Shown: one piece after another, positions 1 through 12,803 of the stretch
Layout: each line of letters starts with the position of its first letter
How positions within the stretch are numbered: the first letter of the stretch is position 1
Source: a virus
Lineage: Duplodnaviria; Heunggongvirae; Uroviricota; Caudoviricetes
DNA: 14,084 nt
Reading direction: 5' to 3' (one strand)
Virus record (IMG/VR): IMGVR_UViG_2663762908_000002
Program-made: the position numbers and the translations under genes
The notes under the pieces: generated by a model
The model's database searches: none
What the model saw: the letters and a program-made list of their open reading frames with translations, nothing else
Told to the model about the DNA's origin: nothing

Positions 1-1299
1 CTAAAGACGCATCCCCTTCCCTTTGCGATGTAGCATCAAAGAAACCAGAAACGCCACCACGGCCATCAAGGTCACATACCAGAAGAAGGCTGTTTCCATT
101 CCTATTGATTTCAGCGACAACGCTACGTACTCCGCCGAACCACCAAATATAGCATTAGCGACCGCATATGACAGACCAACGCCTAATGCGCGAACCTGTG
201 CCGGGAACATCTCAGCCTTCAGTATTCCACTGATTGATGTATAAAAACTCACTATCAGCAGGGCACACATCACCAGACCAAAAGCGGCATAAGGCGAGGA
301 AACGTTTTGCAATGCTGAGAGAATAGGAACGGTAAAAATGGCTGCCAGCGAACCGAAACATAACATTGAGGTACGGCGACCAATCTTATCCGACAGCGCG
401 CCAATGAGTGGTTGAATAAGCATGAATACAAACAATGCGGCAGTCATAATGCCACTCGCCACGTTGGCATGCATTCCCGCAGTATTTACCAGATACTTCT
501 GCATATAAGTAGTGAAGGTATAGAAACAAAGGGAGCCCGCAGCGGTAAAACCGAGAACCATGATGAATGCACGGCGATTGCGCCATAATCCTTTCAGAGA
601 TCCAGCTTCTTTTAAAGCGCGCGTTTCTTGTTGCGAAGTTTCATCTAACTGACGACGTAACCACAACGCCACAACAGCTAACACAGCTCCTAACGCGAAA
701 GGAATACGCCATCCCCACTCTCTGAGTGCAGCGTCTTCCATGGTGTGTTGTAAAACCACGACAACCAGTAGGGCTAGCAGTTGTCCGCCGATCAACGTCA
801 CATACTGAAATGATGCGTAAAAACCTTTGCGCCCTTCAACGGCAACTTCACTCATATAGGTGGCGCTGGTGCCATATTCTCCGCCAACGGATAATCCCTG
901 AAATAAACGAGCGAGAAGCAATAATGCCGGAGCCCACGTACCTATAGTTTCATAACCTGGGAGGCAGGCGATAACCAGCGATCCGAAACACATCATACAC
1001 ACCGATAACAGCATCGATTTTTTGCGACCATGTTTATCGGCTATGCGGCCAAATAGCCAACCGCCTATTGGGCGCATCAGGAATCCCGCAGCAAAAACAC
1101 CTGCTGTTTGTAGTAGTTGAGTCGTCGTGTTCCCGGAAGGGAAGAAAATGTGGGCGAAGTAGAGTGAACAGAACGAGTAGACATAGAAATCGAACCACTC
1201 GACCAGATTACCTGAAGAGGCCCCCACAATCGCCCAAATGCGGCGACGAGTATCACTACTTGTCAGTTTGCTGTCTGCCGTTACAGTACTTTCAGCCAT
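1..1299 (-). CDS. kgtP: alpha-ketoglutarate:H+ symporter (MFS transporter), 432 aa
   Basis: Translation from the ATG at 1299 ([41 protein letters not shown]...) matches E. coli KgtP as I recall it; AGGAGA Shine-Dalgarno 9 nt upstream; TAG stop at 1-3. The ORF-track start at 1401 adds 34 residues with no RBS and is rejected. Confidence 0.93.
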
Positions 1300-1534
1300 G
1301 CCATTATGTCTCCTGCCGTAATCCGATGCTTTTGTTGGTCGCTTTTGTTTATTTCTTTTGGTAAAGAAAATGTTATACATTTGTTGCGTATCATTATGCA
1401 ACCTTAACCATGAATTTAGTTAGCAGGAAAATGGTTATTGAGGAGCTTAAGGATAAATTTCTGGTAAGGAGGACACGTATGGAAGTAGGCAAGTTGGGGA
1501 AACCGCATCCGTTGCTGAATCTGGCATATGTGGG

Positions 1535-1680: not shown

Positions 1681-1690
1681 NNNNNNNNNN
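1681..1690. other. assembly gap (10 N), contig junction
   Basis: Run of 10 n characters; unrelated sequence context on either side. Confidence 0.99.
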
Positions 1691-2740
1691 TTAGGCCAGC
1701 ACACCAATTGCCAGCGCGTGATCGATAAATCGAAAAATCAGCTCCAGTTGGGAGCCATACTTCTCTTCAAATGCCACGGTATCCGTATGCAGTTCGTCGT
1801 GATGCTTTCTGCATAAAGGCAACACAAAAAGATCATGTGCTTTGGTTCCCATTCCGCCCTGCCCGTGACCAATCAGATGATGCGGATCGTCGGCTGGCAT
1901 ACCGCAGCAAGCACACGGCTGTGTCTTCACCCAGCGAGTGTATTTCTCCTTAACCCAGCGGCGACGTTTAGGTAGCTTCATGAAAGATTCCGGAGACTCA
2001 GGATCAACGGTGATGCTTACCACCGTCCTTTCCTGTAGTGGGTGTTGTTCCTGGTGGGCGTGAGGCAACAGTGCAAGATTTTTTGTGCGCTGTTTCAATA
2101 TGCTGGTGGCGGTCTGCTCTCCCGGTACGATGTCGCTTTCGCGGTACATTGAGCGGATTTTTTCCGCTGGTAATCCCAGCGAGCGACGTAATACCGCTTC
2201 AGGTAGCGCATCCGCCACCTGATTTCGGACCGCCCACCAGGATAATTCAGCCAGAGATAATTCACGCTCCTGCGTACCGCTTATTGCGTGACCGATGACG
2301 TCAATCATCCATGCTGACAGGTTTTGATGAGCAAGTTGCTCGAGTGATTCGGATGTCTGGTCACGCAGCTGGTTGTCGCAGTGCCAGCACAACACCATTG
2401 CGCCGGTACCATAACGGTGAATGACGGTTTCACTGTGGTGATAATCGCCGTGTGGCCACTGGCAGGATTTAATATGGCGCAACAGCCAGTCAGACAATGC
2501 ACCAGCACCACCAGCAGCACGAATCACCCGTGCGTTACTGAAAAACGGCAGCAATGTTTTGTCTTCCACCAGCGGCTGGCGAACGGCAGGAACGACCCCG
2601 GACGGCAGATTACGCATGCTTTTCGGTTCCGGCTCCACCAGTACCCGGGTATTGTGGAATACCGGCATGGATTCACGGCCCGGCTTAACGATCACCACCC
2701 CGAGTTCCGGTACCAGAACAGGTCGAAGTAATACCCGCAC
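1691..2740 (-). CDS. YdfU-like prophage protein with a DUF968-type Cys/His-rich C-terminal region, 349 aa
   Basis: ORF with GTG start at 2740 preceded by GGAGG 4 nt upstream, immediately after the upstream gene stop. The C-terminal Cys/His cluster, the length and the position next to hok match my recollection of Qin YdfU. TAA stop is the first triplet after the gap. Confidence 0.7.
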   Translation of the reverse strand: MRVLLRPVLVPELGVVIVKPGRESMPVFHNTRVLVEPEPKSMRNLPSGVVPAVRQPLVEDKTLLPFFSNARVIRAAGGAGALSDWLLRHIKSCQWPHGDYHHSETVIHRYGTGAMVLCWHCDNQLRDQTSESLEQLAHQNLSAWMIDVIGHAISGTQERELSLAELSWWAVRNQVADALPEAVLRRSLGLPAEKIRSMYRESDIVPGEQTATSILKQRTKNLALLPHAHQEQHPLQERTVVSITVDPESPESFMKLPKRRRWVKEKYTRWVKTQPCACCGMPADDPHHLIGHGQGGMGTKAHDLFVLPLCRKHHDELHTDTVAFEEKYGSQLELIFRFIDHALAIGVLA

Positions 2741-2741
2741 G

Positions 2742-3020
2742 TTACCTCCAGATCCGTTGCTGGTATGTGCGGGATGAACGCGGTGGGCGTTCGGAGTAAG
2801 GGAGTCTGACTGAGATTATCCAGTGACGGTAGTCGAGGCTAAGAGCTTTCTTAACCTCGTATCCGCGCCTGCGGTAACACTGAATTATCCATTCCGCCTG
2901 CTCTTCAGTGCATGGAGGATGCTGGAACCAGTCTGATTTGAATGCGTGAAAACGCCGTCCGCACCTACTGGCAAAGACGGCAGAATCATTAGAATTGTGT
3001 AATTTGGTATCGTGCGCCAT
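2742..3020 (-). CDS. small prophage protein at the position of Rem in Qin, 92 aa from ATG 3020 (start uncertain)
   Basis: ORF between hok and the ydfU-like gene. The longer ORF-track version starts with GTG at 3149, has no SD and would span the terminator hairpin at 3090-3119, so the internal ATG at 3020 is preferred. Identity with Rem not verified. Confidence 0.4.
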   Translation of the reverse strand: MAHDTKLHNSNDSAVFASRCGRRFHAFKSDWFQHPPCTEEQAEWIIQCYRRRGYEVKKALSLDYRHWIISVRLPYSERPPRSSRTYQQRIWR

Positions 3021-3089
3021 CGGTTGTCTCTGCTGGCGCAGCAGGTGCCAGTTGTTCAGGCTGGCGTGCGAATTGTAAACCAGAATGCC

Positions 3090-3119
3090 AGGAAAAAACA
3101 AAACCCGCCGAAGCGGGTT
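3090..3119 (-). terminator. Rho-independent terminator downstream of hok
   Basis: Perfect 7-bp stem AACCCGC / GCGGGTT (3102-3108 with 3113-3119, 4-nt loop) followed on the minus strand by UUGUUUUUU (plus 3092-3101). Confidence 0.6.
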
Positions 3120-3187
3120 ACGTGCGGGTGCGTTGAGGATGCCTGACACATCAGAGGTGGCGAGGGATTTCTCCCCCGCCAGGTCTC

Positions 3188-3343
3188 TTACTCCTCAGGT
3201 TCGTAAGCTGTGAAGACAGCGACCTCCGTCTGGCCGGTTCGGATTCGTACCTCGCAGAGGTCTTTCCTCGTTACCAGTGCCGTCACTATGACGGTTAAAC
3301 AGATGACGATCAGGGCGATTAACATCGCCTTTTGCTGCTTCAT
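3188..3343 (-). CDS. hokD: Hok-family type I toxin, 51 aa (not in ORF track; below size cut-off)
   Basis: Hand translation of the minus strand gives MKQQKAMLIALIVICLTVIVTALVTRKDLCEVRIRTGQTEVAVFTAYEPEE, which matches HokD/RelF as I recall it; AAGGAGA SD upstream; TAA stop. Confidence 0.88.
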   Translation of the reverse strand: MKQQKAMLIALIVICLTVIVTALVTRKDLCEVRIRTGQTEVAVFTAYEPEE

Positions 3344-3399
3344 AGCCTGCTTCTCCTTGACCTTTCGGTCCGTAAGAGGCTAATCTCTATGTGTCGCAT
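3340..3399 (-). CDS. 19-codon upstream ORF ending in an ATGA overlap with the hok start (possible mok-like coupling ORF)
   Basis: Minus-strand ATG at 3399, reading MRHIEISLLRTERSRRSRL, with TGA stop overlapping the hok ATG. No SD checked; speculative. Confidence 0.25.
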   Translation of the reverse strand: MRHIEISLLRTERSRRSRL

Positions 3400-3601
3400 A
3401 GATATGGCCTCAGATTAATGTTAAGCGTCTTGCAGGACGCGTAATGTTAACTGGGGCTTTTCTCTATCTGCCTTTTGGTGTTCATGCCTGAGACAGATAG
3501 CCTCAAGCACCCGCAGTCATTCTACTTAACTAAGATTTCCCCGCAAACCGTTTTTGTCCGGCACAGTAAATATCCAACTAAACCAATGGCGTTCGCTGTA
3601 T

Positions 3602-3781
3602 TTACCGCCAGTATTCAATGCACATGACCGCCATGAACACCCCTAAAAAAAGGGCATTTATATATCCAAATATTAATATCAAAACATCAACTTTTTCCAT
3701 ATACCTTGCTGTGAAGATGATGGGCATACATGATACGAACAACCAGAACGCAACAAACAAAAACTGCAATGCGTTTTTCAT
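3602..3781 (-). CDS. small hydrophobic protein, 59 aa, two predicted transmembrane segments
   Basis: ATG at 3781 preceded by AGGAGG 5 nt upstream; translation MKNALQFLFVAFWLFVSCMPIIFTARYMEKVDVLILIFGYINALFLGVFMAVMCIEYWR; AT-rich gene and flanks. The ORF-track start at 3820 lacks an RBS. Confidence 0.5.
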   Translation of the reverse strand: MKNALQFLFVAFWLFVSCMPIIFTARYMEKVDVLILIFGYINALFLGVFMAVMCIEYWR

Positions 3782-4010
3782 TATTCCTCCTACAATCAAT
3801 GTGCAATTACATTTAAACACACCTCAATTTGGCCGGACATATAAATATCTAAACCAGAAAAAATCACTTACATAGCGTTACAAACTCTTTAGTCTAAATA
3901 TTCATCGTAAAACATTCCCCATACTTATCAGCCCGTTCTGCGCCAGGTAGCTCATTGCCTTATCTGGGAATCTGTAATCAGGTTTCCGGATGCTGGTGGA
4001 TTTTCGCGTT

Positions 4011-4268
4011 TTAGTTGTTCATAAAAGTGCACAGCTTTAACCAGTTCTTCTGATGTAACCGGGACTGGCGGGGCAGTGAATAAGGCCTGAATTTCATAGT
4101 TCGGCCTGTCGTTACAATCCTCTTTTTTCGGTACATATTTCCAGTCACCAGACCACTACTTCCCCTGAAAGTCCGTAACGCCTTTTTTTTCACGTAGCGA
4201 TATCGCCATGCCACTGTTTTTGCTTGCCCCGCCGTTTCATGCCCTTCCTGATAATTAACCTCGCTCAT
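4011..4268 (-). CDS. hypothetical basic protein, 85 aa (doubtful)
   Basis: ATG overlaps the stop of the upstream gene (ATGA), but the ORF is rich in rare Arg codons, low in complexity and spans an A8 homopolymer. Confidence 0.25.
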   Translation of the reverse strand: MSEVNYQEGHETAGQAKTVAWRYRYVKKKALRTFRGSSGLVTGNMYRKKRIVTTGRTMKFRPYSLPRQSRLHQKNWLKLCTFMNN

Positions 4269-4441
4269 TCATCGCCCCACTCATCACAATATGCTTCGAC
4301 CGGAGTTTTTCCTGCTTCATAATCATCACGCCATGCTTCAGCATCAGCAGCACTGCCACCACGTAACTCTGCATAGTCCATTAACAGTTCATGCCATTCT
4401 TCAAAACTGACGTTGTATTTAGTTGAACCAAAATCAGCCAT
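4265..4441 (-). CDS. small acidic protein, 58 aa (not in ORF track)
   Basis: Hand translation MADFGSTKYNVSFEEWHELLMDYAELRGGSAADAEAWRDDYEAGKTPVEAYCDEWGDE; GGAAG SD 7 nt upstream; ATG lies 5 nt before the stop of the preceding ORF (ATGGCTGA). Confidence 0.5.
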   Translation of the reverse strand: MADFGSTKYNVSFEEWHELLMDYAELRGGSAADAEAWRDDYEAGKTPVEAYCDEWGDE

Positions 4442-4616
4442 TTTGTTCTTCCTCTTCGTCTTTTATTTCGTGATATGAGTAATTGCAGTAGTTAAAGAAA
4501 ATATCTTTTGCTTCGTCATGTATTTCATCAGGCGTCGCATCATCATCCACTTCGAATTCATCCTCGAAATCTCCACCGGCTATTCCCGTTTCAATAATTA
4601 TTTTAAACTTTCGCAT
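4434..4616 (-). CDS. small highly acidic protein, 60 aa
   Basis: ORF MRKFKIIIETGIAGGDFEDEFEVDDDATPDEIHDEAKDIFFNYCNYSYHEIKDEEEEQNG; 20 Asp/Glu against 5 Lys/Arg; AGGAGG upstream, separated from the ATG by a hairpin. Confidence 0.55.
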   Translation of the reverse strand: MRKFKIIIETGIAGGDFEDEFEVDDDATPDEIHDEAKDIFFNYCNYSYHEIKDEEEEQNG

Positions 4617-4709
4617 TTAACTACCGCCCTTTCGGGCGGCCTCCTGATGTTCTGAGGGTGCAGAAATCCCTCCGGTTAAGGATTAAATTTTTAACAGAGC
4701 TAAATTTAA

Positions 4710-5066
4710 TTATTCAGTTCTGGATTTTGTCGCCCTGCGTATCCGCGCTTTCGCGTTACGCTCAATCTGAATTAGCTTTTCTATATTTTTTCGCCTTTCC
4801 CGCTCCTCCTGACGCAAGAGCCTTACATCATCTGCCAGTCTGGTTTCTCTTTTCGCCACAGAGAGCATCCAGTCAAATGGCTCCACAACTGCACCGCAGA
4901 TTTTACAGCGGACCTGACGCTCTTTTTCGTCAACCCGGACAGAGGCGTGATGACAATATGGTCTTTCCGATGGCTCATAAAGAAAATTAACCTGATTACG
5001 AGGGTCATCCTCTTTTACCGGAAATAAAACGATATTGCTTAACTCATCCTCTGGTTTTATTTCCAT
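4710..5066 (-). CDS. hypothetical protein, 118 aa, with a Cys/His cluster (CHH...CxxC) and a charged, possibly coiled-coil C-terminus
   Basis: ATG at 5066 with AGGAGAGGAG immediately upstream; the ORF-track start at 5123 has no RBS. Confidence 0.6.
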   Translation of the reverse strand: MEIKPEDELSNIVLFPVKEDDPRNQVNFLYEPSERPYCHHASVRVDEKERQVRCKICGAVVEPFDWMLSVAKRETRLADDVRLLRQEERERRKNIEKLIQIERNAKARIRRATKSRTE

Positions 5067-5123
5067 GCTCCTCTCCTTTGATGCGAATGCCAGCGGTAAT
5101 TGAAGCCTGATAGCTAATTTCAC

Positions 5124-5546
5124 TCACAGTACCGCCTCCTGAAAATTACCCTGATAGAAAGCCAGTACACGCTGCATAGCTTCACTCTTCCGGCACTCGC
5201 GACAGATTATGTTTAGGCGACTGTCGTAGCGACGTATTTCTCCGTCAGGTGATGACCAGATAAGGTCCGGATCAACCACAGCAGGTTTCTTCACCTTTGC
5301 CCTCGAGAGTTTTTTGCGGGCGTTTTGCCAGTCCTTACGCGCCTGTTCAGAGGGGAATAACCCGTAGCCGGAGTTGTATACATCGCCGCTGGCAACCAGC
5401 TCTCTTGCGAGAACGCTCATCAGATATCTTGTCGCACCTGTCTTGACTTCCAGTTGCCGTAACGTCTCACGCCCACTCTGGCGTACGAGTTCAACAACCT
5501 GCCCTTTAATTTTTTCTCGCTCTTCTTGTGTAAAAACTTTTGCCAC
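5124..5546 (-). CDS. hypothetical prophage protein, 140 aa
   Basis: GTG start at 5546 with AGGAGGG 3 nt upstream; sits directly downstream of the replication initiator gene. Confidence 0.55.
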   Translation of the reverse strand: MAKVFTQEEREKIKGQVVELVRQSGRETLRQLEVKTGATRYLMSVLARELVASGDVYNSGYGLFPSEQARKDWQNARKKLSRAKVKKPAVVDPDLIWSSPDGEIRRYDSRLNIICRECRKSEAMQRVLAFYQGNFQEAVL

Positions 5547-5586
5547 AAGCCCTCCTGAAAATTACCTCATGACCAGAAATCAACAC

Positions 5587-6657
5587 TTACCCCCTGAAGC
5601 CCGGTGGAATTTCGGTATCCGGTTCAGAAATATGATTCACACAACGCTGGTTGTTCGTGCCGCTTACCGGGAGCAACCAGGGGTTCTCAAAATTCCGGTC
5701 CGGTCCAAAAAACGTCGTCGCTCGCTGAACAAATTCCGTTCCCGTTTTCCCGGTAGCCGCCAAGTATCTTGCGTAACGCCTCACGCCATCCAGCATGGCC
5801 TCTGGTGGCACCCCCTCGCGTAATCTGGCCTTCCAGGCACTGAAAGCGGATTTCTTCGGGTTTGCTCCGGCACGCAACGGGTACTCCCGCCAGACCTGTT
5901 CGAACACATCCGGATAATCCACTCGTCCCACAGACAGCCCGGTGTTTTCCGGGACTACCCGATCGGCTTCCCGCTGAATGGCGGAATCGGCTTCAGGCTG
6001 CTGCAGTTGGTGTGATTGCTCCGGCCTTGGGGTCATCACCTGCTGCACAGCGCCCGAATCGGCTTTCAGCGCATACGCTGAATCGGCTTCCGGTGTCGTG
6101 CCTGCTGGCTGACCAGGATTGACGGTCTGAACATCCCCTGCCTGGTTCGTGGCGTTTTTTACGCCATGGACCATAGTGTTTTGATCTTCTTGATCTGTAT
6201 CTTTATCTGTATCTTTATCTGTCGTGACTCGTCGTGACATGTGCGTGACATTTCGTGACGCGCCGTGACAATCGCCATTTTGTTCCCGCTTTCTTTCCCT
6301 CTCTCGCTGCGCCCTCTTGCGCTCTGCCGGAGATTTTGCGGTTTGCGAAATATTGCCGTTGTCCTCTTTCAGCACCTGGCGTTTTTCCCATCCAGTGATT
6401 AAATCACCATCAAGTACCCGCCCCTGCATCGTCTGCAAAATTGAATCAATTACCTCTTCTGTCACGTCGAGCGCACTTGCCAAATCTTCTGTCGTGACAT
6501 CAATGTGACCTCGCGTGACATTTCGTGACGCGCTCACCAGGAGGTGGATATACACTGCCATCACTGTTGCAATTGGCTGCCCTGACACCCTGGCAATTGT
6601 TCGCCACTTAGGGTCATTTGGCATGTCATGCCATAATCTGAGCCAGGCGTTAGCCAT
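5587..6657 (-). CDS. phage replication initiation protein (O-like), 356 aa
   Basis: ATG at 6657 with GAGG 5 nt upstream. The N-terminus (MANAWLRLWHDMPNDPKWRTIARVSGQPIATV...) and a C-terminal motif block resemble phage replication-initiator families as I recall them; internal iteron-like repeats support an embedded origin. Confidence 0.7.
   Translation of the reverse strand: MANAWLRLWHDMPNDPKWRTIARVSGQPIATVMAVYIHLLVSASRNVTRGHIDVTTEDLASALDVTEEVIDSILQTMQGRVLDGDLITGWEKRQVLKEDNGNISQTAKSPAERKRAQRERERKREQNGDCHGASRNVTHMSRRVTTDKDTDKDTDQEDQNTMVHGVKNATNQAGDVQTVNPGQPAGTTPEADSAYALKADSGAVQQVMTPRPEQSHQLQQPEADSAIQREADRVVPENTGLSVGRVDYPDVFEQVWREYPLRAGANPKKSAFSAWKARLREGVPPEAMLDGVRRYARYLAATGKTGTEFVQRATTFFGPDRNFENPWLLPVSGTNNQRCVNHISEPDTEIPPGFRG
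6193..6222. repeat. tandem repeat, 12-bp unit ATCTGTATCTTT, 2.5 copies, AT-rich, next to iterons
   Basis: Direct reading; two GATC sites lie immediately upstream (6183-6186, 6192-6195). Confidence 0.8.
6223..6269. repeat. iteron-like array: 5 copies of CGTGAC at 10-11 bp spacing (putative phage origin)
   Basis: CGTGAC at 6223, 6233, 6244, 6254 and 6264; helical periodicity; inside the replication initiator gene. Confidence 0.55.
6494..6533. repeat. second iteron-like array: 4 copies of GTGAC at 10-11 bp spacing
   Basis: GTGAC at 6494, 6505, 6515 and 6525; a 21-nt exact copy (6513-6533) of 6243-6263. Confidence 0.5.
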
Positions 6658-6728
6658 ACTCACCTCTTCTGATACCGAATCTTTTTACTCACGAGTTGCC
6701 GGAAGCGATTCGATATGGCTATTGTCAG

Positions 6729-7154
6729 TCAATGTACTGCCACAGCATTTCCTGCCGGGCCACCACGGTTCATCTGATTGAAACCGGCGATTGCCACTGC
6801 GACAAAATCATCAGCGTCTCTCACCAGTCGCTCCCGCGTCTCCACCAGCTCCCGAAAATAAGCTGAACTGTGGCTGCGCATTCTGGCCACCAGCAAAGGT
6901 GGCATTGCCTTTTCGATCGCTGGTAACAACGCCTGAATTTTTTCAACTGCATCAGGGGTGTCTTTCTCTACCCAGCGGAAAATTTTCTGGGTATTGCGAG
7001 CCAGGGCTTCCGGATGGCTGTCGTCATACAGTTCCGGGAACGTCATTCCCAGCTCGAAATACGCTTTGGTAATTTTCGCAGCCGGTACTTTTTCGCCGTC
7101 CGGATGCGCCCAGGCATTCATCGCCATGCGGATGTGTTCATGCTTGATTTTCAT
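6729..7154 (-). CDS. YdaT-like protein (second gene of the cro operon), 141 aa
   Basis: ORF with ATG overlapping the cro-like stop (ATGA at 7151-7154); position and size match Rac ydaT; family assignment from memory only. Confidence 0.55.
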   Translation of the reverse strand: MKIKHEHIRMAMNAWAHPDGEKVPAAKITKAYFELGMTFPELYDDSHPEALARNTQKIFRWVEKDTPDAVEKIQALLPAIEKAMPPLLVARMRSHSSAYFRELVETRERLVRDADDFVAVAIAGFNQMNRGGPAGNAVAVH

Positions 7155-7381
7155 GAATCCCCCCCTTGGTTAGAAGGCGGATTATGATCAGAACCGGGAA
7201 TGACAACCGTCGGTATGTGTAACTCATATTTGAGCGCCCCGGCAGTGACTGCCTGAATTAGCAACGCCCATTTCCACGGAACCTCTTCCCCCCACATGCT
7301 GACTGTGGTTTTTGACGTTCCTAGAGCTGCGGCTGTTTTAACAACTCCGCCAAAATAGCCTAATACTTCTGATTTTTTCAT
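7151..7381 (-). CDS. Cro-like HTH regulator, DicC/YdaS family, 76 aa
   Basis: ATG at 7381 with GGAG 6 nt upstream; the sequence pattern (LGYFGG...KTAAALG...VSMWGEEVP) parallels DicC as I recall it; divergent from the repressor gene. Confidence 0.75.
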   Translation of the reverse strand: MKKSEVLGYFGGVVKTAAALGTSKTTVSMWGEEVPWKWALLIQAVTAGALKYELHIPTVVIPGSDHNPPSNQGGDS

Positions 7382-7472
7382 GAGTCGCTCCATAAAACTG
7401 AACGTCAAAAGTTTAATAATCAAAACCAAAGAAAGTCAAGAAACAAAACCATCTGTGTTTTAAAATCAAAAC
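7382..7472. promoter_or_regulatory. divergent immunity control region (PR-like and PRM-like promoters plus operator)
   Basis: Plus-strand -10 TAAAAT (7461-7466) about 7 nt before the cI ATG; minus-strand -35 TTGACT (complement of 7434-7439) with an AT-rich -10 candidate; palindrome TGTTTT-N6-AAAACA at 7456-7473. Confidence 0.55.
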
Positions 7473-8111
7473 ATGAGCAAGCAAACTATATCTGAACGCA
7501 TAACCCAACGTATGCATGCGCTAAACCTGAAAGGCAAAGACCTTGTCAATGGCACTGGCGCATCAAAAGGCTCCGTAAGTCAATGGATGAACGGTGGAGG
7601 AGCGCCGTCCTCGCGTTACATAAGTTCACTGGCAAAAATATTGAAAGTAAACGAAAATTGGCTTCTTAATGGAGGAGAGTTAAATACAGGTGATTCGCTT
7701 GATCTATCTTTACCGCCGATAAAAACGGTTCCGCTACTATCACTTCAGCAGGCAGCAAGCTGGAGTGATTATATGAAAAATTCCTCAATAACCTCTTGTG
7801 TGCAGCTTGTCGGAGAAATCCCGGTCAATACCTTTGCAGTTGTTCTAGAGAGTGACAGTATGTCAACATCTGGTGGGGGAGTTTCCATCCCAAATGGTTC
7901 AACAGTTTTTGTTGATCCCGATCGAACCGTACAACCAGGAAATATTGTCCTTGCCTTACCCAAAGGGACCACAACACCTGTCATTCGTAAACTGGAGATA
8001 GAAGGGCCGGATATTCTTTTAGTCCCCACGAATCCTCGCTACCCTTCAATTATGCTGGATGATCTATCTTGCATATTGGGCGTATGCTTTAAAATTCAAC
8101 AAGATATTTAA
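7473..8111 (+). CDS. CI-type prophage repressor (N-terminal HTH, C-terminal S24 LexA-like peptidase domain), 212 aa
   Basis: The C-terminal region aligns by eye with lambda CI and LexA autocleavage domains (ESDSMS...VFVDPD...IRKLE...LVPTNPRYPSI); divergent from the cro-like gene. Confidence 0.9.
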   Translation: MSKQTISERITQRMHALNLKGKDLVNGTGASKGSVSQWMNGGGAPSSRYISSLAKILKVNENWLLNGGELNTGDSLDLSLPPIKTVPLLSLQQAASWSDYMKNSSITSCVQLVGEIPVNTFAVVLESDSMSTSGGGVSIPNGSTVFVDPDRTVQPGNIVLALPKGTTTPVIRKLEIEGPDILLVPTNPRYPSIMLDDLSCILGVCFKIQQDI

Positions 8112-8175
8112 CCAACCTCATCTATTTGATTAACTGTATGCCATCGTGGTGATGGCTTAACAGCTGCCTGCTTAA

Positions 8176-8224
8176 AATGTTTTGATAAAAAAACATTGAC
8201 CTGGAAAGTTCGTCTTTCTAAACT
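8176..8224 (+). promoter_or_regulatory. PL-like promoter for the ydfABC-dicF-dicB operon with an overlapping operator
   Basis: -35 TTGACC (8196-8201), 17-bp spacer, -10 TAAACT (8219-8224); inverted repeat AATGTTTT-N6-AAAACATT (8176-8197) sharing the TGTTTT-N6-AAAACA core with the site at 7456-7473. Confidence 0.5.
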
Positions 8225-8403
8225 TCATTCATTCCCTCACCCCATCCTACAGAATGCAGGGCAATACTTCGAGTTACCAGGCAGTGGTCAGGGGTTAAGT
8301 AGCCAGCCCGAGGCGTAAGAACATGACGGCAGGGTTCAACTTTAATAACTATGCAGCAGGTTTTTGTTCCGCTACCCCGGCGTTAAGGGGAAATGAGGTC
8401 AGC

Positions 8404-8559
8404 ATGGATACTATCGATCTTGGCAACAACGAATCTCTGGTGTACGGCGTGTTTCCAAACCAGGACGGCACCTTCACCGCAATGACGTATACCAAAAGCA
8501 AAACGTTTAAAACCGAAAATGGTGCCCGTCGCTGGCTGGAAAGAAACTCAGGTGAGTGA
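8404..8559 (+). CDS. ydfA: Qin-type small protein YdfA, 51 aa
   Basis: ATG at 8404 with GAGGT SD; size and order match ydfA-ydfB-ydfC-dicF-dicB in K-12 Qin. The ORF-track start at 8323 lacks an RBS. Confidence 0.75.
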   Translation: MDTIDLGNNESLVYGVFPNQDGTFTAMTYTKSKTFKTENGARRWLERNSGE

Positions 8560-8560
8560 T

Positions 8561-8689
8561 ATGGATTTTGACACAATCATGGAAAAGGCTTACGAAGAAT
8601 ACTTCGAAGGCCTTGCCGAAGGCGAAGAAGCTCACAGCTTCAACGAATTTAAACAGGCGCTTTCCAGTTCGGCAAAATCTAACGGCTGA
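8561..8689 (+). CDS. ydfB: Qin-type small protein YdfB, 42 aa (not in ORF track)
   Basis: Hand translation MDFDTIMEKAYEEYFEGLAEGEEAHSFNEFKQALSSSAKSNG; starts 2 nt after the ydfA stop; acidic. Confidence 0.75.
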   Translation: MDFDTIMEKAYEEYFEGLAEGEEAHSFNEFKQALSSSAKSNG

Positions 8690-8718
8690 TAAGCGAAACA
8701 GCACCGCGAGGAATCAGT

Positions 8719-8937
8719 ATGCAGAAACGAGAACCCGTCATCATCGCGCCAGACTATACCGATGATGAACTTTATGAGTGGATGCGCCAGAAAATTAATG
8801 CAGCGCAGGATCTGAAATGGGCCAATGAAGCCAGGGCTAAGCAGGCTGAAAATCTGTCCGCTCTGGAGCAGGATATCACCAATCTGGAAAAAGCAGCGGC
8901 ATTAAGCATTGCCAGAATGATTACATACCCGCGTTAA
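8719..8937 (+). CDS. ydfC: Qin-type small protein YdfC, 72 aa
   Basis: ORF with GAGGA SD; size and position match ydfC. Confidence 0.78.
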   Translation: MQKREPVIIAPDYTDDELYEWMRQKINAAQDLKWANEARAKQAENLSALEQDITNLEKAAALSIARMITYPR

Positions 8938-9277
8938 TAGCTAACCAACGAAGCTAAGGTTGGTAATTAAGGAGTTCTCCACGGGTGAGGTGGAGTGCGT
9001 GCGCCGGACACGGGTGAGCATCCGGCACTGACAGTTTACTGAAAGGATATTTCCCTGAAAAGTCAGACCATAACGCGAAAGCGCACGGCGAGGTAGCTGG
9101 TTCATAGATAGCCTGTCGTTAAATTTTCGTCGACCGTGCGCTTCCGGTTGTGGCAACCCGCGAAATGGTGCGGCGGTAAGTATGGCGGGGTTATTTCTTC
9201 CCCGTTGAGGACACCGGGTTGTCAGGTTGACCATACGCTTAAGTGACAACCCCGCTGCAACGCCCTCTGTTATCAAT

Positions 9278-9335
9278 TTTCTGGTGACGTTTGGCGGTAT
9301 CAGTTTTACTCCGTGACTGCTCTGCCGCCCTTTTT
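9278..9335 (+). ncRNA. dicF: DicF small RNA (Hfq-dependent cell-division inhibitor, acts on ftsZ mRNA)
   Basis: Sequence TTTCTGGTGACGTTTGGCGGTATCAGTTTTACTCCGTGACTGCTCTGCCGCCCTTTTT matches DicF as I recall it, including the intrinsic terminator hairpin and U tail; lies between ydfC and dicB as in Qin. Ends approximate. Confidence 0.8.
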
Positions 9336-9504
9336 AAAGTGAATTTTGTGATGTGGTGAATGCGGCTGAGCGCACGCGGAACAGTTAAAACCAAAAACAG
9401 TGTTATGGGTGGATTCTCTGTATCCGGCGTTAATTGTTAACTGGTTAACGTCACCTGGAGGCACCAGGCACTGCATCACAAAATTCATTGTTGAGGACGC
9501 GATA

Positions 9505-9693
9505 ATGAAAACGTTATTACCAAACGTTAATACGTCTGAAGGTTGTTTTGAAATTGGTGTCACTATCAGTAACCCAGTATTTACTGAAGATGCCATTAAC
9601 AAGAGAAAACAAGAACGGGAGCTATTAAATAAAATATGCATTGTTTCAATGCTGGCTCGTTTACGTCTGATGCCAAAAGGATGTGCACAATGA
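9505..9693 (+). CDS. dicB: cell-division inhibitor DicB (MinC-dependent), 62 aa
   Basis: Translation MKTLLPNVNTSEGCFEIGVTISNPVFTEDAINKRKQERELLNKICIVSMLARLRLMPKGCAQ matches DicB as I recall it; GAGGA SD 7 nt upstream. The ORF-track start at 9400 is rejected. Confidence 0.9.
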   Translation: MKTLLPNVNTSEGCFEIGVTISNPVFTEDAINKRKQERELLNKICIVSMLARLRLMPKGCAQ

Positions 9694-9881
9694 ATTCAGC
9701 ATTTGTGCTTGTTCTGACAGTTTTTCTTGTTTCCGGAGAGCCAGTTGATATTGCAGTCAGTGTTCACAGGACAATGCAGGAGTGTATGACTGCAGCAACC
9801 GAACAGAAAATTCCCGGTAACTGTTACCCGGTCGATAAAGTTATTCACCAGGATAATATCGAAATCCCGGCAGGTCTTTAA
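9690..9881 (+). CDS. ydfD: YdfD (small membrane-anchored protein reported to cause lysis), 63 aa
   Basis: ATG overlaps the dicB stop (ATGA); translation MNSAFVLVLTVFLVSGEPVDIAVSVHRTMQECMTAATEQKIPGNCYPVDKVIHQDNIEIPAGL; hydrophobic N-terminus. Confidence 0.85.
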   Translation: MNSAFVLVLTVFLVSGEPVDIAVSVHRTMQECMTAATEQKIPGNCYPVDKVIHQDNIEIPAGL

Positions 9882-9973
9882 AACAGTTCCGTAATAAATA
9901 TCCGGTTTCATTCTTATATGCCAGCAATGGCAGGGATTTGTTCATCCTTAAATCTGTCATGAGGTTAAAACAA

Positions 9974-12445
9974 ATGAGTAAAGTCTTTATTTGCGCCGCT
10001 ATTCCTGACGAACTGGCAACAAGGGAAGAAGGCGCTGTGGCTGTAGCCACAGCCATTGAAGCTGGCGACGAACGCCGTGCTCGAGCAAAATTTCACTGGC
10101 AATTCCTGGAACATTATCCGGCTGCTCAGGACTGCGCTTATAAATTTATTGTCTGCGAGGATAAACCTGGCATACCCCGCCCTGCCCTCGATTCATGGGA
10201 TGCTGAATATATGCAGGAAAACCGCTGGGATGAGGAGTCTGCTTCTTTTGTCCCGGTTGAGACTGAATCCGATCCGATGAACGTCACTTTTGACAAGCTG
10301 GCCCCTGAAGTACAGAACGCTGTCATGGTTAAGTTCGACACATGTGAAAACATCACCGTTGATATGGTTATTAGCGCACAGGAATTGTTGCAGGAAGACA
10401 TGGCAACATTCGACGGACATATCGTTGAAGCGTTGATGAAAATGCCAGAAGTTAACGCCATGTATCCGGAGCTTAAGTTGCACGCCATTGGGTGGGTTAA
10501 GCATAAATGTATTCCTGGTGCTAAATGGCCCGAAATTCAGGCAGAGATGCGCATCTGGAAAAAACGTCGCGAAGGTGAACGCAAGGAAACCGGAAAATAC
10601 ACGTCTGTTGTTGATCTCGCCCGCGCCAGAGCCAATCAACAGTACACTGAAAATTCAACAGGAAAAATCAGCCCGGTCATTGCTGCCATTCATCGCGAAT
10701 ACAAGCAGACATGGAAAACACTGGATGACGAACTGGCCTACGCTCTCTGGCCTGGTGATGTGGATGCCGGAAACATTGACGGCAGCATCCATCGCTGGGC
10801 AAAAAATGAAGTTATCGACAACGACCGCGAAGACTGGAAGCGTATCTCGGCATCAATGCGCAAACAGCCTGATGCCCTTCGCTACGACCGCCAAACTATT
10901 TTTGGCCTTGTCCGTGAGCGTCCGATCGACATTCACAAAGATCCCGTAGCACTGAACAAATATATCTGCGAATACCTGACGACAAAGGGCGTGTTTGAGA
11001 ATGAAGAAACAGACCTGGGCACTGTTGATGTTCTCCAGTCATCAGAAACACAAACTGATGCAGTGGAAACTGAGGTATCTGATATCCCAAAAAATGAAAC
11101 CGCGCCGGAAGCTGAACCATCTGTAGAGCGTGAGGGGCCGTTCTATTTCCTCTTCGCAGATAAGGACGGAGAAAAATACGGTCGCGCAAACAAACTTTCT
11201 GGTCTGGATAAGGCACTGGCTGCTGGCGCCACTGAAATCACAAAAGAAGAATATTTTGCCCGAAAAAATGGCACATACACGGGCTTACCGCAAAATGTAG
11301 ATACCGCTGAAGATTCAGAACAACCAGAGCCGATAAAAGTTACCGCTGACGAAGTAAACAAAATTATGCAGGCAGCCAATATCATCCAGCCTGACGCCGA
11401 TAAGTTGCTTGCTGCATCACGTGGTGAATTTGTTGAAGGGATTAGTGACCCGAATGATCCGAAATGGGTTAAGGGGATCCAGACCCGCGATTCTGTGAAC
11501 CAGAACCAGCATGAATCGGAACGGAACTACCAAAAAGCGGAACAAAACAGCCCAAATGCGTTACAAAACGAGCCAGAAACGAAACAGCCTGAATCAGTGG
11601 CGCAACAGGAAGTGGAAAAAGTCTGCACCGCCTGCGGTCAGACCGGCGGCGGCAACTGCCCTGATTGTGGCGCGGTAATGGGCGACGCAACATACCAGGA
11701 AACATTCGATGAAGAGTATCAGATTGAAGTTCAGGAAGATGATCCGGAGGAAATGGAAGGCGCTGAACATCCACACAAGGAGAACACTGGCGGCAATCAG
11801 CATCACGATAGCGATAATGAAACTGGCGAGACGGCAGATCACTCAATTAAGGTGAACGGTCATCAAGAAATCACATCCACCAGCAGGACGTGTGACCATC
11901 TAATGATCGACCTTGAAACCATGGGAAAAAATCCTGATGCCCCGATCATCTCAATAGGTGCAATATTTTTCGATCCGCAAACCGGAGATATGGGACCGGA
12001 ATTTAGTAAGACTATCGATCTGGAAACTGCTGGCGGAGTCATTGATCGGGACACCATTAAATGGTGGCTTAAGCAATCACGCGAAGCGCAATCTGCCATT
12101 ATGACCGATGAAATCCCGTTAGATGATGCACTGTTACAATTGTGGGAATTTATCGACGAAAACTCCGGTGAATTTTTTGTTCAGGTCTGGGGAAATGGAG
12201 CCAACTTCGACAACACGATTTTGCGCCGTTCATACGAACGGCAGGGGATCCCCTGCCCGTGGCGTTACTACAACGATCGCGATGTACGCACAATCGTTGA
12301 GCTGGGGAAAGCCATAGACTTCGATGCCAGAACGGCTATTCCATTCGAAGGTGAGCGCCATAATGCACTTGATGACGCCCGTTACCAGGCAAAATACGTT
12401 TCAGTTATCTGGCAAAAACTGATCCCGAGTCAGGCTGATTCTTAA
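9974..12445 (+). CDS. prophage exonuclease-VIII-like protein, 823 aa, with a C-terminal DEDDh 3'-5' exonuclease domain and an internal CxxC...CxxC zinc ribbon
   Basis: ATG at 9974 with GAGG 9 nt upstream; the C-terminus carries DLET (Exo I), NFD (Exo II) and HNALDD (Exo III); zinc ribbon CTACGQTGGGNCPDCG. The N-terminal region corresponds to the truncated K-12 ydfE as I recall it. Confidence 0.85.
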   Translation: MSKVFICAAIPDELATREEGAVAVATAIEAGDERRARAKFHWQFLEHYPAAQDCAYKFIVCEDKPGIPRPALDSWDAEYMQENRWDEESASFVPVETESDPMNVTFDKLAPEVQNAVMVKFDTCENITVDMVISAQELLQEDMATFDGHIVEALMKMPEVNAMYPELKLHAIGWVKHKCIPGAKWPEIQAEMRIWKKRREGERKETGKYTSVVDLARARANQQYTENSTGKISPVIAAIHREYKQTWKTLDDELAYALWPGDVDAGNIDGSIHRWAKNEVIDNDREDWKRISASMRKQPDALRYDRQTIFGLVRERPIDIHKDPVALNKYICEYLTTKGVFENEETDLGTVDVLQSSETQTDAVETEVSDIPKNETAPEAEPSVEREGPFYFLFADKDGEKYGRANKLSGLDKALAAGATEITKEEYFARKNGTYTGLPQNVDTAEDSEQPEPIKVTADEVNKIMQAANIIQPDADKLLAASRGEFVEGISDPNDPKWVKGIQTRDSVNQNQHESERNYQKAEQNSPNALQNEPETKQPESVAQQEVEKVCTACGQTGGGNCPDCGAVMGDATYQETFDEEYQIEVQEDDPEEMEGAEHPHKENTGGNQHHDSDNETGETADHSIKVNGHQEITSTSRTCDHLMIDLETMGKNPDAPIISIGAIFFDPQTGDMGPEFSKTIDLETAGGVIDRDTIKWWLKQSREAQSAIMTDEIPLDDALLQLWEFIDENSGEFFVQVWGNGANFDNTILRRSYERQGIPCPWRYYNDRDVRTIVELGKAIDFDARTAIPFEGERHNALDDARYQAKYVSVIWQKLIPSQADS

Positions 12446-12517
12446 TGTTCAACTGTCGCCGGTTGTGACTGGTATTCTGCAACCGGCGCTCGTCTGATGT
12501 AAGAGATAAAGAAATCG

Positions 12518-12769
12518 ATGAGCGAAGTAATCATGATTGTCTCTCCCGGCAAATGGGTATCCGAAGAGCAGTTAATTGCGCTGAAAGGAATAAAAAAAGG
12601 TACGTTAAAAAAGGCCCGGGAAAAATCGTTTATGGAAGGAAGGGAATATAAGCATGTCGCTCATGACGGTATGCCATGGGATAACAGTCCATGCTTTTAC
12701 AACCTGGAAGAAATTGATCGCTGGATTGAGCGCCAGGCATCAGCAAGACCAAGACGTCATCTTACTTGA
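12518..12769 (+). CDS. excisionase-like protein (DUF1233-type putative Xis), 83 aa
   Basis: Small basic protein directly upstream of the integrase; the motif KWVSEEQL...GREYKHV..DG..W is typical of this excisionase family as I recall it. Confidence 0.65.
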   Translation: MSEVIMIVSPGKWVSEEQLIALKGIKKGTLKKAREKSFMEGREYKHVAHDGMPWDNSPCFYNLEEIDRWIERQASARPRRHLT

Positions 12770-12803
12770 CTAAAAGCCACACTAACTAATGAGAGAAATT
12801 GAA

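What the first reader, a model, noticed from the sequence alone, without database searches (positions are those of the whole stretch)
3090..3600. Stand-alone hok type I toxin locus with its own terminator and a coupled leader ORF, not embedded in relBE
The 51-aa Hok protein (complement 3188-3343) is invisible to the ORF track and was found by hand translation. In K-12 Qin, as I recall, the orthologous hokD (relF) is the last gene of the relB-relE operon and lacks its own regulatory elements. Here all three minus-strand frames are closed by stop codons around 3525-3540, so no relE-sized ORF can lie directly upstream. Instead there is about 250 bp of leader with a 19-codon upstream ORF whose TGA overlaps the hok ATG, and a clean intrinsic terminator downstream (3090-3119). 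That layout suggests a complete, independently regulated hok/sok-type module in which an antisense Sok-like RNA would be expected in the leader.
Basis: partly seen in the sequence, partly recalled or inferred. Interest (0 to 1): 0.55.

Follow-up and report, generated by a model that had tools for sequence, protein, structure and literature searches.

The report
Complete prophage hok/sok toxin-antitoxin module
This is an ordinary, complete copy of the well-known hok/sok toxin and antisense-RNA antitoxin cassette in a Qin-like prophage of E. coli; about four in five E. coli genomes carry the complete form, and the truncated relBE-linked K-12 copy is the exception.

Summary
The minus strand at 3343-3188 encodes a 51-aa protein identical to K-12 HokD. 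A 19-codon ORF (3399-3340) ends in a TGA that overlaps the hok ATG. An intrinsic terminator lies at 3119-3093, and there is no relE upstream.

The leader (3512-3341) matches Rfam RF01794 at 106.7 bits. The predicted full-length mRNA pairs its 5' end (tac) with a 3' element (fbi) and sequesters the Shine-Dalgarno site (SD) of the leader ORF, mok. The GenBank sokW antisense RNA of phage 933W projects onto 3393-3461 (+), which has promoter-like hexamers, a 13-nt 5' tail, a long hairpin and a U-tail.

None of this is new. 933W has annotated mokW, hokW and sokW (about 91% identical to this locus). [quoted passage not shown] The complete leader occurs in 4275 of 5426 complete E. coli genomes, against 1175 with the K-12 relE-hokD junction.

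There are two minor points of interest. This allele, found in about 800 genomes, has a short stop-start-coupled mok, whereas most relatives have a 70-aa in-frame mok or an overlapping +1-frame mok. A 23-nt patch that encodes the Sok 5' tail is hypervariable among otherwise conserved loci.

The parts
3519..3546 (-). Putative hok promoter: -35 TTGCGG (3546-3541), 16-nt spacer, -10 TAGAAT (3524-3519), with +1 at G3512.
   Evidence: Read. The -10 and +1 region is conserved across 71 distinct related loci, while sequence upstream of about 3531 diverges (pi 0.47). The consensus scan did not flag it, because the -35 matches only 3 of 6. +1 is taken from the first position of the Rfam model.
3093..3512 (-). 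Full-length hok mRNA, about 415-420 nt.
   Evidence: The 5' end is position 1 of the Rfam RF01794 match and the 3' end is the intrinsic terminator. MFE is -175.2 kcal/mol with z = -7.8 against shuffles.
3501..3512 (-). tac (translational activator element), GGGUGCUUGAGG.
   Evidence: It pairs with 3138-3126 in the full-length MFE fold. In 60-175-nt 5' fragments it pairs instead with ucb at 3459-3453.
3451..3459 (-). ucb (upstream complementary box, the anti-SD for mok), AAGCCCCAG.
   Evidence: It pairs with the mok SD region 3413-3407 in the full-length fold and with tac in 5' fragments.
3340..3399 (-). mok-equivalent leader ORF of 19 codons. Its SD GAGG (3411-3408) lies 8 nt upstream, and its UGA (3342-3340) overlaps the hok AUG.
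   Evidence: Its start aligns with the annotated mokW start of 933W. In R1 the first 19 mok codons also precede the hok start (PMC9841398).
3376..3380 (-). dcb (downstream complementary box), GCCUC, which pairs with the mok SD GAGGC (3411-3407) in the open conformation.
   Evidence: Seen in folds of 140-nt and 175-nt 5' fragments. The helix is invariant in 33 alleles, so covariation gives no information on it.
3188..3343 (-). hok (hokD allele), 51 aa plus stop. The hok SD GGAG lies at 3356-3353.
   Evidence: with identity to WP_000813254.1. In the predicted fold the SD pairs with CUCUU at 3378-3374.
3159..3180 (-). Stable 3' stem-loop, GGCGGGGGAGAAAUCCCUCGCC. It is the likely protective 3' end of the processed (truncated) mRNA.
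   Evidence: The fold shows a 10-bp stem. The role is inferred from the R1 model (PMC9841398).
3126..3138 (-). fbi (fold-back inhibitory element), CCUCAACGCACCC.
   Evidence: It forms 12 bp with tac with one bulge. The pairing sits at stop+45 to +51 in most sampled relatives, with compensatory changes.
3093..3119 (-). Intrinsic terminator of hok mRNA.
   Evidence: a 7-bp stem, loop TTCG and a T-rich tail.
3357..3386 (+). Putative Sok promoter: -35 TTGACC (3357-3362), 18-nt spacer, -10 TAATCT (3381-3386).
   Evidence: Read. It occupies the same position as the promoter implied by the sokW annotation in 933W (TTGCCT, 17 nt, TAACCT). The hexamers are conserved in 71 loci. The consensus scan did not flag it. 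K-12 homology breaks at 3357, inside the -35.
3393..3461 (+). Predicted Sok antisense RNA, 69 nt.
   Evidence: This is the exact projection of the GenBank misc_RNA sokW of 933W. The fold gives a single-stranded 5' tail (3393-3405), a long hairpin (3406-3458) and a U-tail, at -29.8 kcal/mol and z = -4.4. It is complementary to ucb, the mok SD and the mok AUG.
3384..3406 (.). Hypervariable patch: the mok SD-to-AUG spacer plus mok codons 2-5, which is also the Sok 5' tail and the first bases downstream of the Sok -10.
   Evidence: Pi is 0.29 here against 0.02-0.06 in adjacent leader segments. There are 33 alleles in 104 loci.

Best explanation
Window 3546-3093 (minus strand) is a complete, self-contained hok/mok/sok type I toxin-antitoxin cassette of the hokD/hokW subfamily. 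It sits in the early region of a Qin-like lambdoid prophage.

Proposed mechanism, inferred from the R1 paradigm and matched element by element here:
1. A weak promoter makes a stable hok mRNA of about 416 nt.
2. The 5' end of that mRNA (tac) pairs with the 3' fbi element, and its ucb box sequesters the mok SD. The full-length RNA can therefore neither be translated nor be bound by Sok.
3. Slow 3' trimming removes fbi. tac then pairs with ucb and the mok SD is exposed.
4. If the labile 69-nt Sok RNA is present, it binds through its 5' tail, covers the mok SD and AUG, and the duplex is destroyed.
5. If Sok is absent, ribosomes translate the 19-codon mok and melt the hairpin that hides the hok SD. 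They terminate at the UGA that overlaps the hok AUG (AUGA) and re-initiate on hok.
6. The 51-aa Hok peptide inserts into the inner membrane and kills or lyses the cell.

What is shown here: the sequence elements, their order, the predicted pairings, homology to an experimentally validated locus, and population conservation. What is inferred: transcription, 3' processing, translational coupling and toxicity in this strain.

The physiological role is less certain. It could be prophage addiction, help with lysis on induction (as reported for hokW-sokW), or exclusion of other phages.
For: - Toxin: Pfam HOK_GEF at 82.9 bits and PHROG 251 'MokW-like host killing'. The protein is identical to HokD. 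The HokD coding sequence is listed among previously characterised toxic controls in bioRxiv 10.1101/2025.08.07.668861.
- Leader: Rfam RF01794 at 106.7 bits against a gathering score of 59, covering the whole model 1-157.
- Fold-back: tac and fbi form 12 bp and ucb pairs with the mok SD in the MFE fold of the full-length mRNA, z = -7.8. 5' fragments switch to tac/ucb plus SD/dcb.
- Covariation: tac/fbi covaries across relatives (GGGUGC/GCACCC versus GGGCGC/GCGCCC; GAGG/CCUC versus GAGA/UCUC), mostly at a fixed distance of stop+45 to +51.
- Antitoxin: Sok projects from the annotated sokW and has an antisense-RNA-like fold.
- Experimental homolog: hokW-sokW is HokW-toxic, a sokW promoter mutation unmasks that toxicity, sokW in trans rescues it, and both RNAs are seen on northern blots (PMC8621323).
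- Leader ORF: only translation of mok up to the hok initiation region is needed in R1 (PMC9841398). A 19-codon mok that ends at the hok AUG should therefore suffice.
- Autonomy: conservation starts at the -10 and ends at the terminator while both flanks diverge.
- Persistence: the exact short-mok allele is in about 800 of 5426 complete genomes, so it is not a sporadic lesion.
Against: - No expression data were available for this strain.
- The simple sigma-70 scan called neither the hok promoter nor the Sok promoter, because the hok -35 and the Sok -10 each match only 3 of 6.
- The MFE fold of a 3'-truncated mRNA did not give the textbook open form. Only the 5'-fragment folds did.
- According to the preprint's summary of Pedersen and Gerdes 1999, the chromosomal hokA, hokB and hokC loci did not mediate post-segregational killing.
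- No terminator is predicted between the upstream 59-aa ORF (which ends at 3602) and the hok +1. Read-through transcripts with a 5' extension are therefore possible.
- HokD carries Tyr at codon 46 (UAC followed by G, 3208-3205). [quoted passage not shown] Full toxicity may therefore depend on TadA.
Confidence: 0.88

Rival explanations
1. The cassette is structurally complete but functionally silent, a recently inherited relic. In this reading the short mok (a -1 frame change relative to most relatives) or the 18-nt Sok promoter spacer has crippled expression, as has been argued for several chromosomal hok loci.
For: - The chromosomal hokA, hokB and hokC loci were reported not to mediate post-segregational killing (the preprint's summary of ref. 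26).
- All 13 sampled loci with the 56-nt spacing share a single mok peptide, so the spacing looks like one event inherited by descent.
- No promoter was called by the consensus scan.
Against: - The allele is present in about 800 of 5426 complete genomes with an intact hok ORF, tac/fbi and Sok hexamers.
- A toxin with a dead antitoxin would be counter-selected, and a dead toxin would be expected to accumulate lesions.
- R1 data show that mok translation past the hok start is dispensable.
- The Sok hexamers here (TTGACC and TAATCT) are at least as close to consensus as those of the functional sokW (TTGCCT and TAACCT).
Confidence: 0.1
2. hok is expressed here mainly as the 3' end of read-through transcripts from the upstream early-operon genes, as in the K-12 relB-relE-hokD operon, and not from its own promoter.
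For: - The upstream genes lie on the same strand.
- No terminator is predicted between 3602 and 3512.
- The hok -35 is weak and lies in non-conserved sequence.
Against: - The -10 TAGAAT and the position of +1 are conserved in 71 distinct loci whose upstream flanks are unrelated (pi 0.47). This argues for a promoter carried by the cassette.
- The tac element must be at the extreme 5' end for the fold-back scheme. Read-through RNA would still be held silent by ucb/SD pairing and by Sok.
Confidence: 0.05

Closest known systems
mokW/hokW/sokW of Stx2 phage 933W (GenBank AF125520) and of Sakai prophage Sp5 (Takada et al. 2021, PMC8621323)
   Same: - 90.6% nucleotide identity over window 3558-3116.
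- The same element order, and a location in a lambdoid phage.
- The Sok coordinates project base for base onto the window.
- The two Hok proteins are 47 of 51 residues identical.
- This is an experimentally confirmed type I toxin-antitoxin system.
   Different: - mokW starts 57 nt upstream of hokW and is in frame with it, giving a 70-aa fusion. Here the spacing is 56 nt, so mok is 19 codons and stops on the hok AUG.
- The Sok 5' tail and its target patch differ.
- The Sok -35 is TTGACC with an 18-nt spacer here, against TTGCCT with 17 nt.
- The position in the phage genome differs: hokW lies near one end of the 933W record, whereas this copy lies between the replication genes and ydfU.
- The four Hok C-terminal differences are at residues 44, 45, 48 and 51.
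hokD (relF) of E. coli K-12 Qin, the last gene of relB-relE-hokD
   Same: - The Hok protein is identical (WP_000813254.1).
- The hok SD, 3' UTR, fbi and terminator are the same or nearly so (window 3357-3094 at 98.5% identity).
- It occupies the same relative position upstream of the hypothetical gene and the ydfU (DUF968) gene, in a prophage at the rspB site.
   Different: - K-12 lacks everything upstream of window 3357: the hok promoter, tac, ucb, the mok start, the Sok promoter and Sok. These are replaced by relBE.
- K-12 also has rem downstream, which is absent here.
- The K-12 junction is in 1175 of 5426 genomes, against 4275 for the complete leader.
hok/mok/sok (parB) of plasmid R1
   Same: - The same logic and the same set of elements: tac, ucb, mok SD, dcb, hok SD, fbi and a cis-antisense Sok.
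- 19 mok codons precede the hok start in both.
- The leader matches the Rfam model of the family.
   Different: - R1 Hok is about 44% identical to HokW.
- R1 mok is 70 codons in the +1 frame and overlaps hok (58-nt spacing).
- Relative to the Rfam consensus, the sokT/Sok hairpin here carries a 16-nt apical insertion. This makes Sok about 69 nt instead of about 64.
- The context is a plasmid rather than a prophage.
hokC (gef)/mokC-type chromosomal loci
   Same: They belong to the same family. The tac/fbi pairing is at the same distance, and Hok is about 80-82% identical.
   Different: - The leader is shorter (tac to hok AUG about 149 nt against 169) because the Sok hairpin is short.
- Some hokD-coding loci carry this short hairpin (the '147 class'), which shows mosaicism between subfamilies.

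Membership tests
[quoted passage not shown] | A Hok/Gef toxin ORF of about 50 aa | tested here: met
   HOK_GEF at 82.9 bits against a cut-off of 22. The protein is identical to HokD, WP_000813254.1.
[quoted passage not shown] | A structured 5' leader of about 150-175 nt that matches the family covariance model | tested here: met
   RF01794 at 106.7 bits against a gathering score of 59, E = 7e-24, model positions 1-157 of 157, window 3512-3341. The model matches the hok-sense strand, so it is evidence for the leader and not, by itself, for Sok transcription.
[quoted passage not shown] | Long-range tac (5' end) to fbi (3' UTR) pairing | tested here: met
   12 bp between 3512-3501 and 3138-3126 in the MFE fold. 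Most sampled relatives keep it at stop+45 to +51, with compensatory changes.
[quoted passage not shown] | ucb sequesters the mok SD in the closed form; tac/ucb and SD/dcb pairings form in the open form | tested here: met
   Predicted folds of the full-length RNA and of 5' fragments. This is in silico only. The MFE fold of a 3'-trimmed RNA did not reproduce the open form.
[quoted passage not shown] | A mok leader ORF with its own SD, translated through the hok SD and coupled to hok | tested here: met
   SD GAGG, 8 nt, then AUG at 3399. The ORF runs across the hok SD (3356-3353) and stops at 3342-3340. It differs in length and frame from R1 and 933W. The coupling itself was not tested.
[quoted passage not shown] | A cis-encoded antisense Sok RNA with its own promoter and terminator, covering the mok translation-initiation region | tested here: inconclusive
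   The positional homolog of the annotated sokW is 3393-3461 (+). Hexamers TTGACC and TAATCT are conserved, and the fold has a 5' tail, a hairpin and a U-tail. The consensus scan did not call the promoter and no transcript data exist for this strain.
[quoted passage not shown] | Toxin kills, the antisense RNA neutralises it, and activation follows 3' processing of the mRNA | not testable with these tools
   Shown only for relatives: hokW-sokW (PMC8621323), HokD coding-sequence toxicity (bioRxiv 10.1101/2025.08.07.668861) and R1 (PMC9841398).
K-12-type relB-relE-hokD operon arrangement | relE immediately upstream of hok, with the hok leader and sok replaced | tested here: not met
   There is no RelE or RelB ORF, all three frames are closed at 3532-3522, and a full leader is present.

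The most novel reading that the evidence does not exclude
The 23-nt hypervariable patch (3406-3384) specifies the Sok 5' tail and its target around the mok start. It may define orthogonal Sok/hok recognition classes that let several hokD/hokW-type cassettes (median 2, up to 9 per E. coli genome) coexist without cross-neutralisation. On this reading the window allele is a distinct class: it has a 5-nt target loop and a 19-codon mok coupled to hok by stop-start overlap (AUGA), and it is a natural third solution to mok-hok coupling. The evidence does not exclude this, but it gives only weak support. Same-allele co-residence (80 of 804 carriers) is about what random assortment predicts. The long Sok hairpin is shared between alleles.
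Probability: 0.25. Interest if true: 0.4.

Novelty: already known. Interest (0 to 1): 0.12.

Why it matters
It matters little as a discovery. It confirms that the textbook K-12 hokD is a truncated derivative of a cassette that most E. coli carry intact in lambdoid prophages.

Its practical value is for annotation. RefSeq annotates only the hokD coding sequence, and nothing (neither mok nor Sok) over the 169-nt leader in any of the rows listed.

The natural series of three mok configurations in loci with the same or nearly the same HokD, together with the hypervariable Sok tail, could serve as ready-made material for testing translational coupling and antisense specificity.

Tried and rejected
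1. Covariation in the small hairpin that holds the mok AUG (33 alleles, alignment A2). There were no compensatory pairs, the observed values did not exceed the shuffles, and the stem register differs between alleles. The hairpin is supported only by per-allele MFE folds.
2. Consensus promoter scan. It found neither the hok promoter nor the Sok promoter. Both assignments rest on homology and conservation.
3. Folding a 3'-trimmed mRNA to reproduce the open, translatable form. The MFE fold kept ucb/SD paired. Only 5' fragments showed tac/ucb pairing.
4. The idea that the prophage is biologically truncated just past DUF968, next to an MFS transporter. This is rejected. Positions 1681-1690 are Ns, and 1-1680 is the kgtP-rrf region from elsewhere on the chromosome.
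5. A test for avoidance of same-allele co-residence. The sampled genomes with several copies mostly carry different alleles, but about 91% of random pairs would too. In the complete genomes, 80 of 804 carriers have two copies of the window allele. Random assortment predicts roughly (2.3 - 1) x 0.083, about 0.11. There is no signal.
6. Family searches on the upstream 59-aa ORF. Pfam and PHROGs returned nothing.
7. The R1, hokA, hokB and hokE DNA sequences were not fetched.

Full report
**What is in the sequence.** On the minus strand, 3343-3188 encodes MKQQKAMLIALIVICLTVIVTALVTRKDLCEVRIRTGQTEVAVFTAYEPEE. It hits Pfam HOK_GEF at 82.9 bits and PHROG 251, 'MokW-like host killing'. RefSeq names the same protein (WP_000813254.1) HokD both in K-12 and in a strain that is 100% identical to window 3050-3650. 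The 19-codon ORF is real: ATG at 3399, and a TGA at 3342-3340 that overlaps the hok ATG as ATGA. Stops close all three frames at 3532-3522. The only terminator-like site in 2950-3700 is the hairpin 3119-3102 with its T-run. The one correction is that the 5' UTR is 169 nt, not about 250.

**Element map.**
- Leader: Rfam RF01794 matches 3512-3341 on the hok-sense strand over the whole model, at 106.7 bits against a gathering score of 59. This places the mRNA 5' end at G3512, 6 nt downstream of a conserved TAGAAT (3524-3519).
- Closed form: the predicted full-length mRNA (3512-3097) folds at -175.2 kcal/mol, z = -7.8. Its first 12 nt (tac) pair with 3138-3126 (fbi). GCCCCAG at 3457-3451 (ucb) pairs with the mok SD region at 3413-3407.
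- Open form: 5' fragments of 60-175 nt instead pair tac with ucb, and the mok SD (GAGGC) with GCCUC at 3380-3376 (dcb). These are the two conformations of the R1 model as summarised in PMC9841398.
- hok SD: GGAG at 3356-3353 is paired with 3378-3374 inside the mok ORF. A ribosome translating mok would unwind that pairing and then terminate on the hok AUG.
- Family-wide support: in most sampled relatives the tac/fbi duplex sits 45-51 nt after the stop, and it covaries (GGGUGC/GCACCC versus GGGCGC/GCGCCC; GAGG/CCUC versus GAGA/UCUC).

**Sok.** GenBank AF125520 (phage 933W) annotates mokW, hokW and a 71-nt misc_RNA, sokW. The locus is 90.6% identical to the window over 3558-3116. Projecting sokW through alignment A1 gives window 3393-3461 on the plus strand, 69 nt. 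That RNA folds into a 13-nt single-stranded 5' tail, a long hairpin and GGGGCUUUU, at -29.8 kcal/mol and z = -4.4. It is complementary to ucb, the mok SD and the mok AUG. Upstream lie TTGACC (3357-3362), an 18-nt spacer and TAATCT (3381-3386). Both hexamers are conserved in 71 distinct loci. The simple consensus scan called neither this promoter nor the hok promoter, so both assignments rest on homology. For hokW-sokW in prophage Sp5, the following have been shown experimentally (PMC8621323):
- HokW is toxic.
- A sokW promoter mutation unmasks that toxicity, and sokW in trans rescues it.
- Both RNAs are detectable on northern blots.
- The locus roughly doubles phage release after mitomycin C.

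**Relation to K-12.** K-12 genomes match only window 3357-3094. In alignment A1, homology begins about 14-16 nt upstream of the hok ATG, inside the Sok -35. Everything upstream in K-12 is the relE 3' region. K-12 therefore keeps the hok SD, coding sequence, fbi and terminator, and has lost the promoter, tac, ucb, the mok start and Sok. The closest complete genome to the window (EC32, 97.9% over 1990-14084) carries this prophage with its integrase next to rspB. That is where the Qin integrase remnant lies in K-12, and hok sits in the same place relative to the hypothetical gene and the ydfU/DUF968 gene.

**How common it is.** The counts among 5426 complete E. coli genomes are:

| Feature | Genomes |
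|---|---|
| 169-nt leader at 80% coverage or more (median 2 places per genome, up to 9) | 4275 |
| K-12 relE-hokD junction | 1175 |
| 44-nt stretch specific to the window allele | about 800 |

The leader carries no annotated feature in any of the rows listed. hok homologs are already catalogued on a large scale and are reported to be enriched in prophages (bioRxiv 10.1101/2025.08.07.668861). The finding is therefore an ordinary instance of a known system.

**What differs slightly.** In 90 sampled loci with the same or nearly the same HokD, the distance from the mok ATG to the hok ATG falls into three classes:
- 57 nt in the majority. mok is in frame with hok and gives a 70-aa product, as annotated for mokW.
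- 58 nt in two loci. mok is in the R1-like +1 frame and encodes 68 aa.
- 56 nt in 13 loci, including the window. mok is 19 codons and ends at AUGA. All 13 share one mok peptide, which points to a single lineage.

R1 mutagenesis showed that mok translation is needed only up to the hok initiation region (PMC9841398). All three layouts should therefore work, and I found no description of the short form in the papers I could search.

The indels that cause these frame changes lie in a patch (3406-3384) that is much more variable (pi 0.29) than the flanking leader (pi 0.02-0.06). The patch holds 33 alleles in 104 loci. It encodes the Sok 5' tail, which in R1 is the element that starts binding to hok mRNA (from my own knowledge: Thisted et al. 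1994, EMBO J). This suggests diversification of recognition specificity, but two tests failed to support it. Covariation in the small hairpin was absent. Same-allele co-residence (80 of 804 carriers) is about what random assortment predicts.

**Boundaries and autonomy.** Conservation among 71 distinct loci begins at about 3531, just upstream of the -10, and ends at the terminator T-run. Both flanks are essentially unrelated between loci (pi 0.47 and 0.54). This pattern is what a self-contained cassette carrying its own -10, +1 and terminator would show. The -35 lies in variable sequence, and no terminator separates the cassette from the upstream 59-aa ORF. Some read-through cannot be excluded.

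**Verdict.** This is a complete hok/mok/sok cassette of the hokD/hokW subfamily (confidence 0.88). It is already known as a kind, it is common in E. coli, and a close relative has been validated experimentally. Interest is low (0.12).

Noticed in passing
window 1681-1690 (and 1-1680): There is a run of 10 N. The window joins two contigs. Positions 1-1680 hold kgtP (the ORF at 1-1401, minus strand) plus the 3' part of a 5S rRNA gene, and they are 100% identical to many E. coli chromosomes. The prophage part begins at 1691, at the stop of the DUF968 gene. The apparent prophage end is therefore an assembly artefact.
   Followed up: yes
window 3602-3781 (-): A 59-aa hydrophobic ORF (MKNALQFLFVAFWLFVSCMPIIFTARYMEKVDVLILIFGYINALFLGVFMAVMCIEYWR) with a strong SD (GGAGG). 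It sits in an A+T-rich stretch (GC about 0.35) directly upstream of the hok promoter. It has no Pfam or PHROG hit and is not annotated in the strain that is 100% identical over 3050-3650. It could be a small membrane protein or moron, or it could be spurious.
   Followed up: partly
window 3384-3406; loci L003-L138: A hypervariable patch lies in otherwise conserved hokD/hokW-type cassettes. It covers the Sok 5' tail and the mok SD-to-AUG spacer plus mok codons 2-5. There are 33 alleles in 104 loci, and pi is 0.29 against 0.02-0.06 for the neighbouring segments. There is no covariation support for the local hairpin and no sign that identical alleles avoid each other.
   Followed up: partly
loci L076, L080, L087, L089, L117, L127, L137 (IMG/VR): These are mosaic cassettes. 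The hok coding sequence is the hokD type, but the leader carries the short, hokC-like sokT/Sok hairpin (tac to hok ATG 147 nt instead of 169). This indicates recombination between hok subfamilies inside the leader.
   Followed up: partly
window 3205-3208 (-): hok codon 46 is UAC followed by G (a UACG context) and lies in an unpaired stretch of the predicted fold. A 2026 preprint states that Cys46 in hokC, hokD and hokE arises by TadA A-to-I editing, as with hokB Y29C. HokD toxicity here may therefore depend on editing of A3207.
   Followed up: no
window 9279-9330 (+): DicF sRNA (Rfam RF00039, 76.7 bits, full length) sits in the expected ydfABC-dicF-dicB-ydfD context. The prophage carries an S24/LexA-like repressor (7473-8111, +), a P22-Cro-like gene (7429-7154, -) and YdaT in place of the K-12 dicA/dicC region.
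   Followed up: partly
window 3012-3146 (+) and equivalents in other genomes: Some public annotations place short 'mobile element protein' or 'hypothetical protein' coding sequences on the strand opposite the hok 3' UTR and terminator. Examples are EC32 LJN50_RS25255, phage Evi and phage vB_EcoS-640R1. They overlap fbi and the terminator and are probably spurious calls.
   Followed up: no
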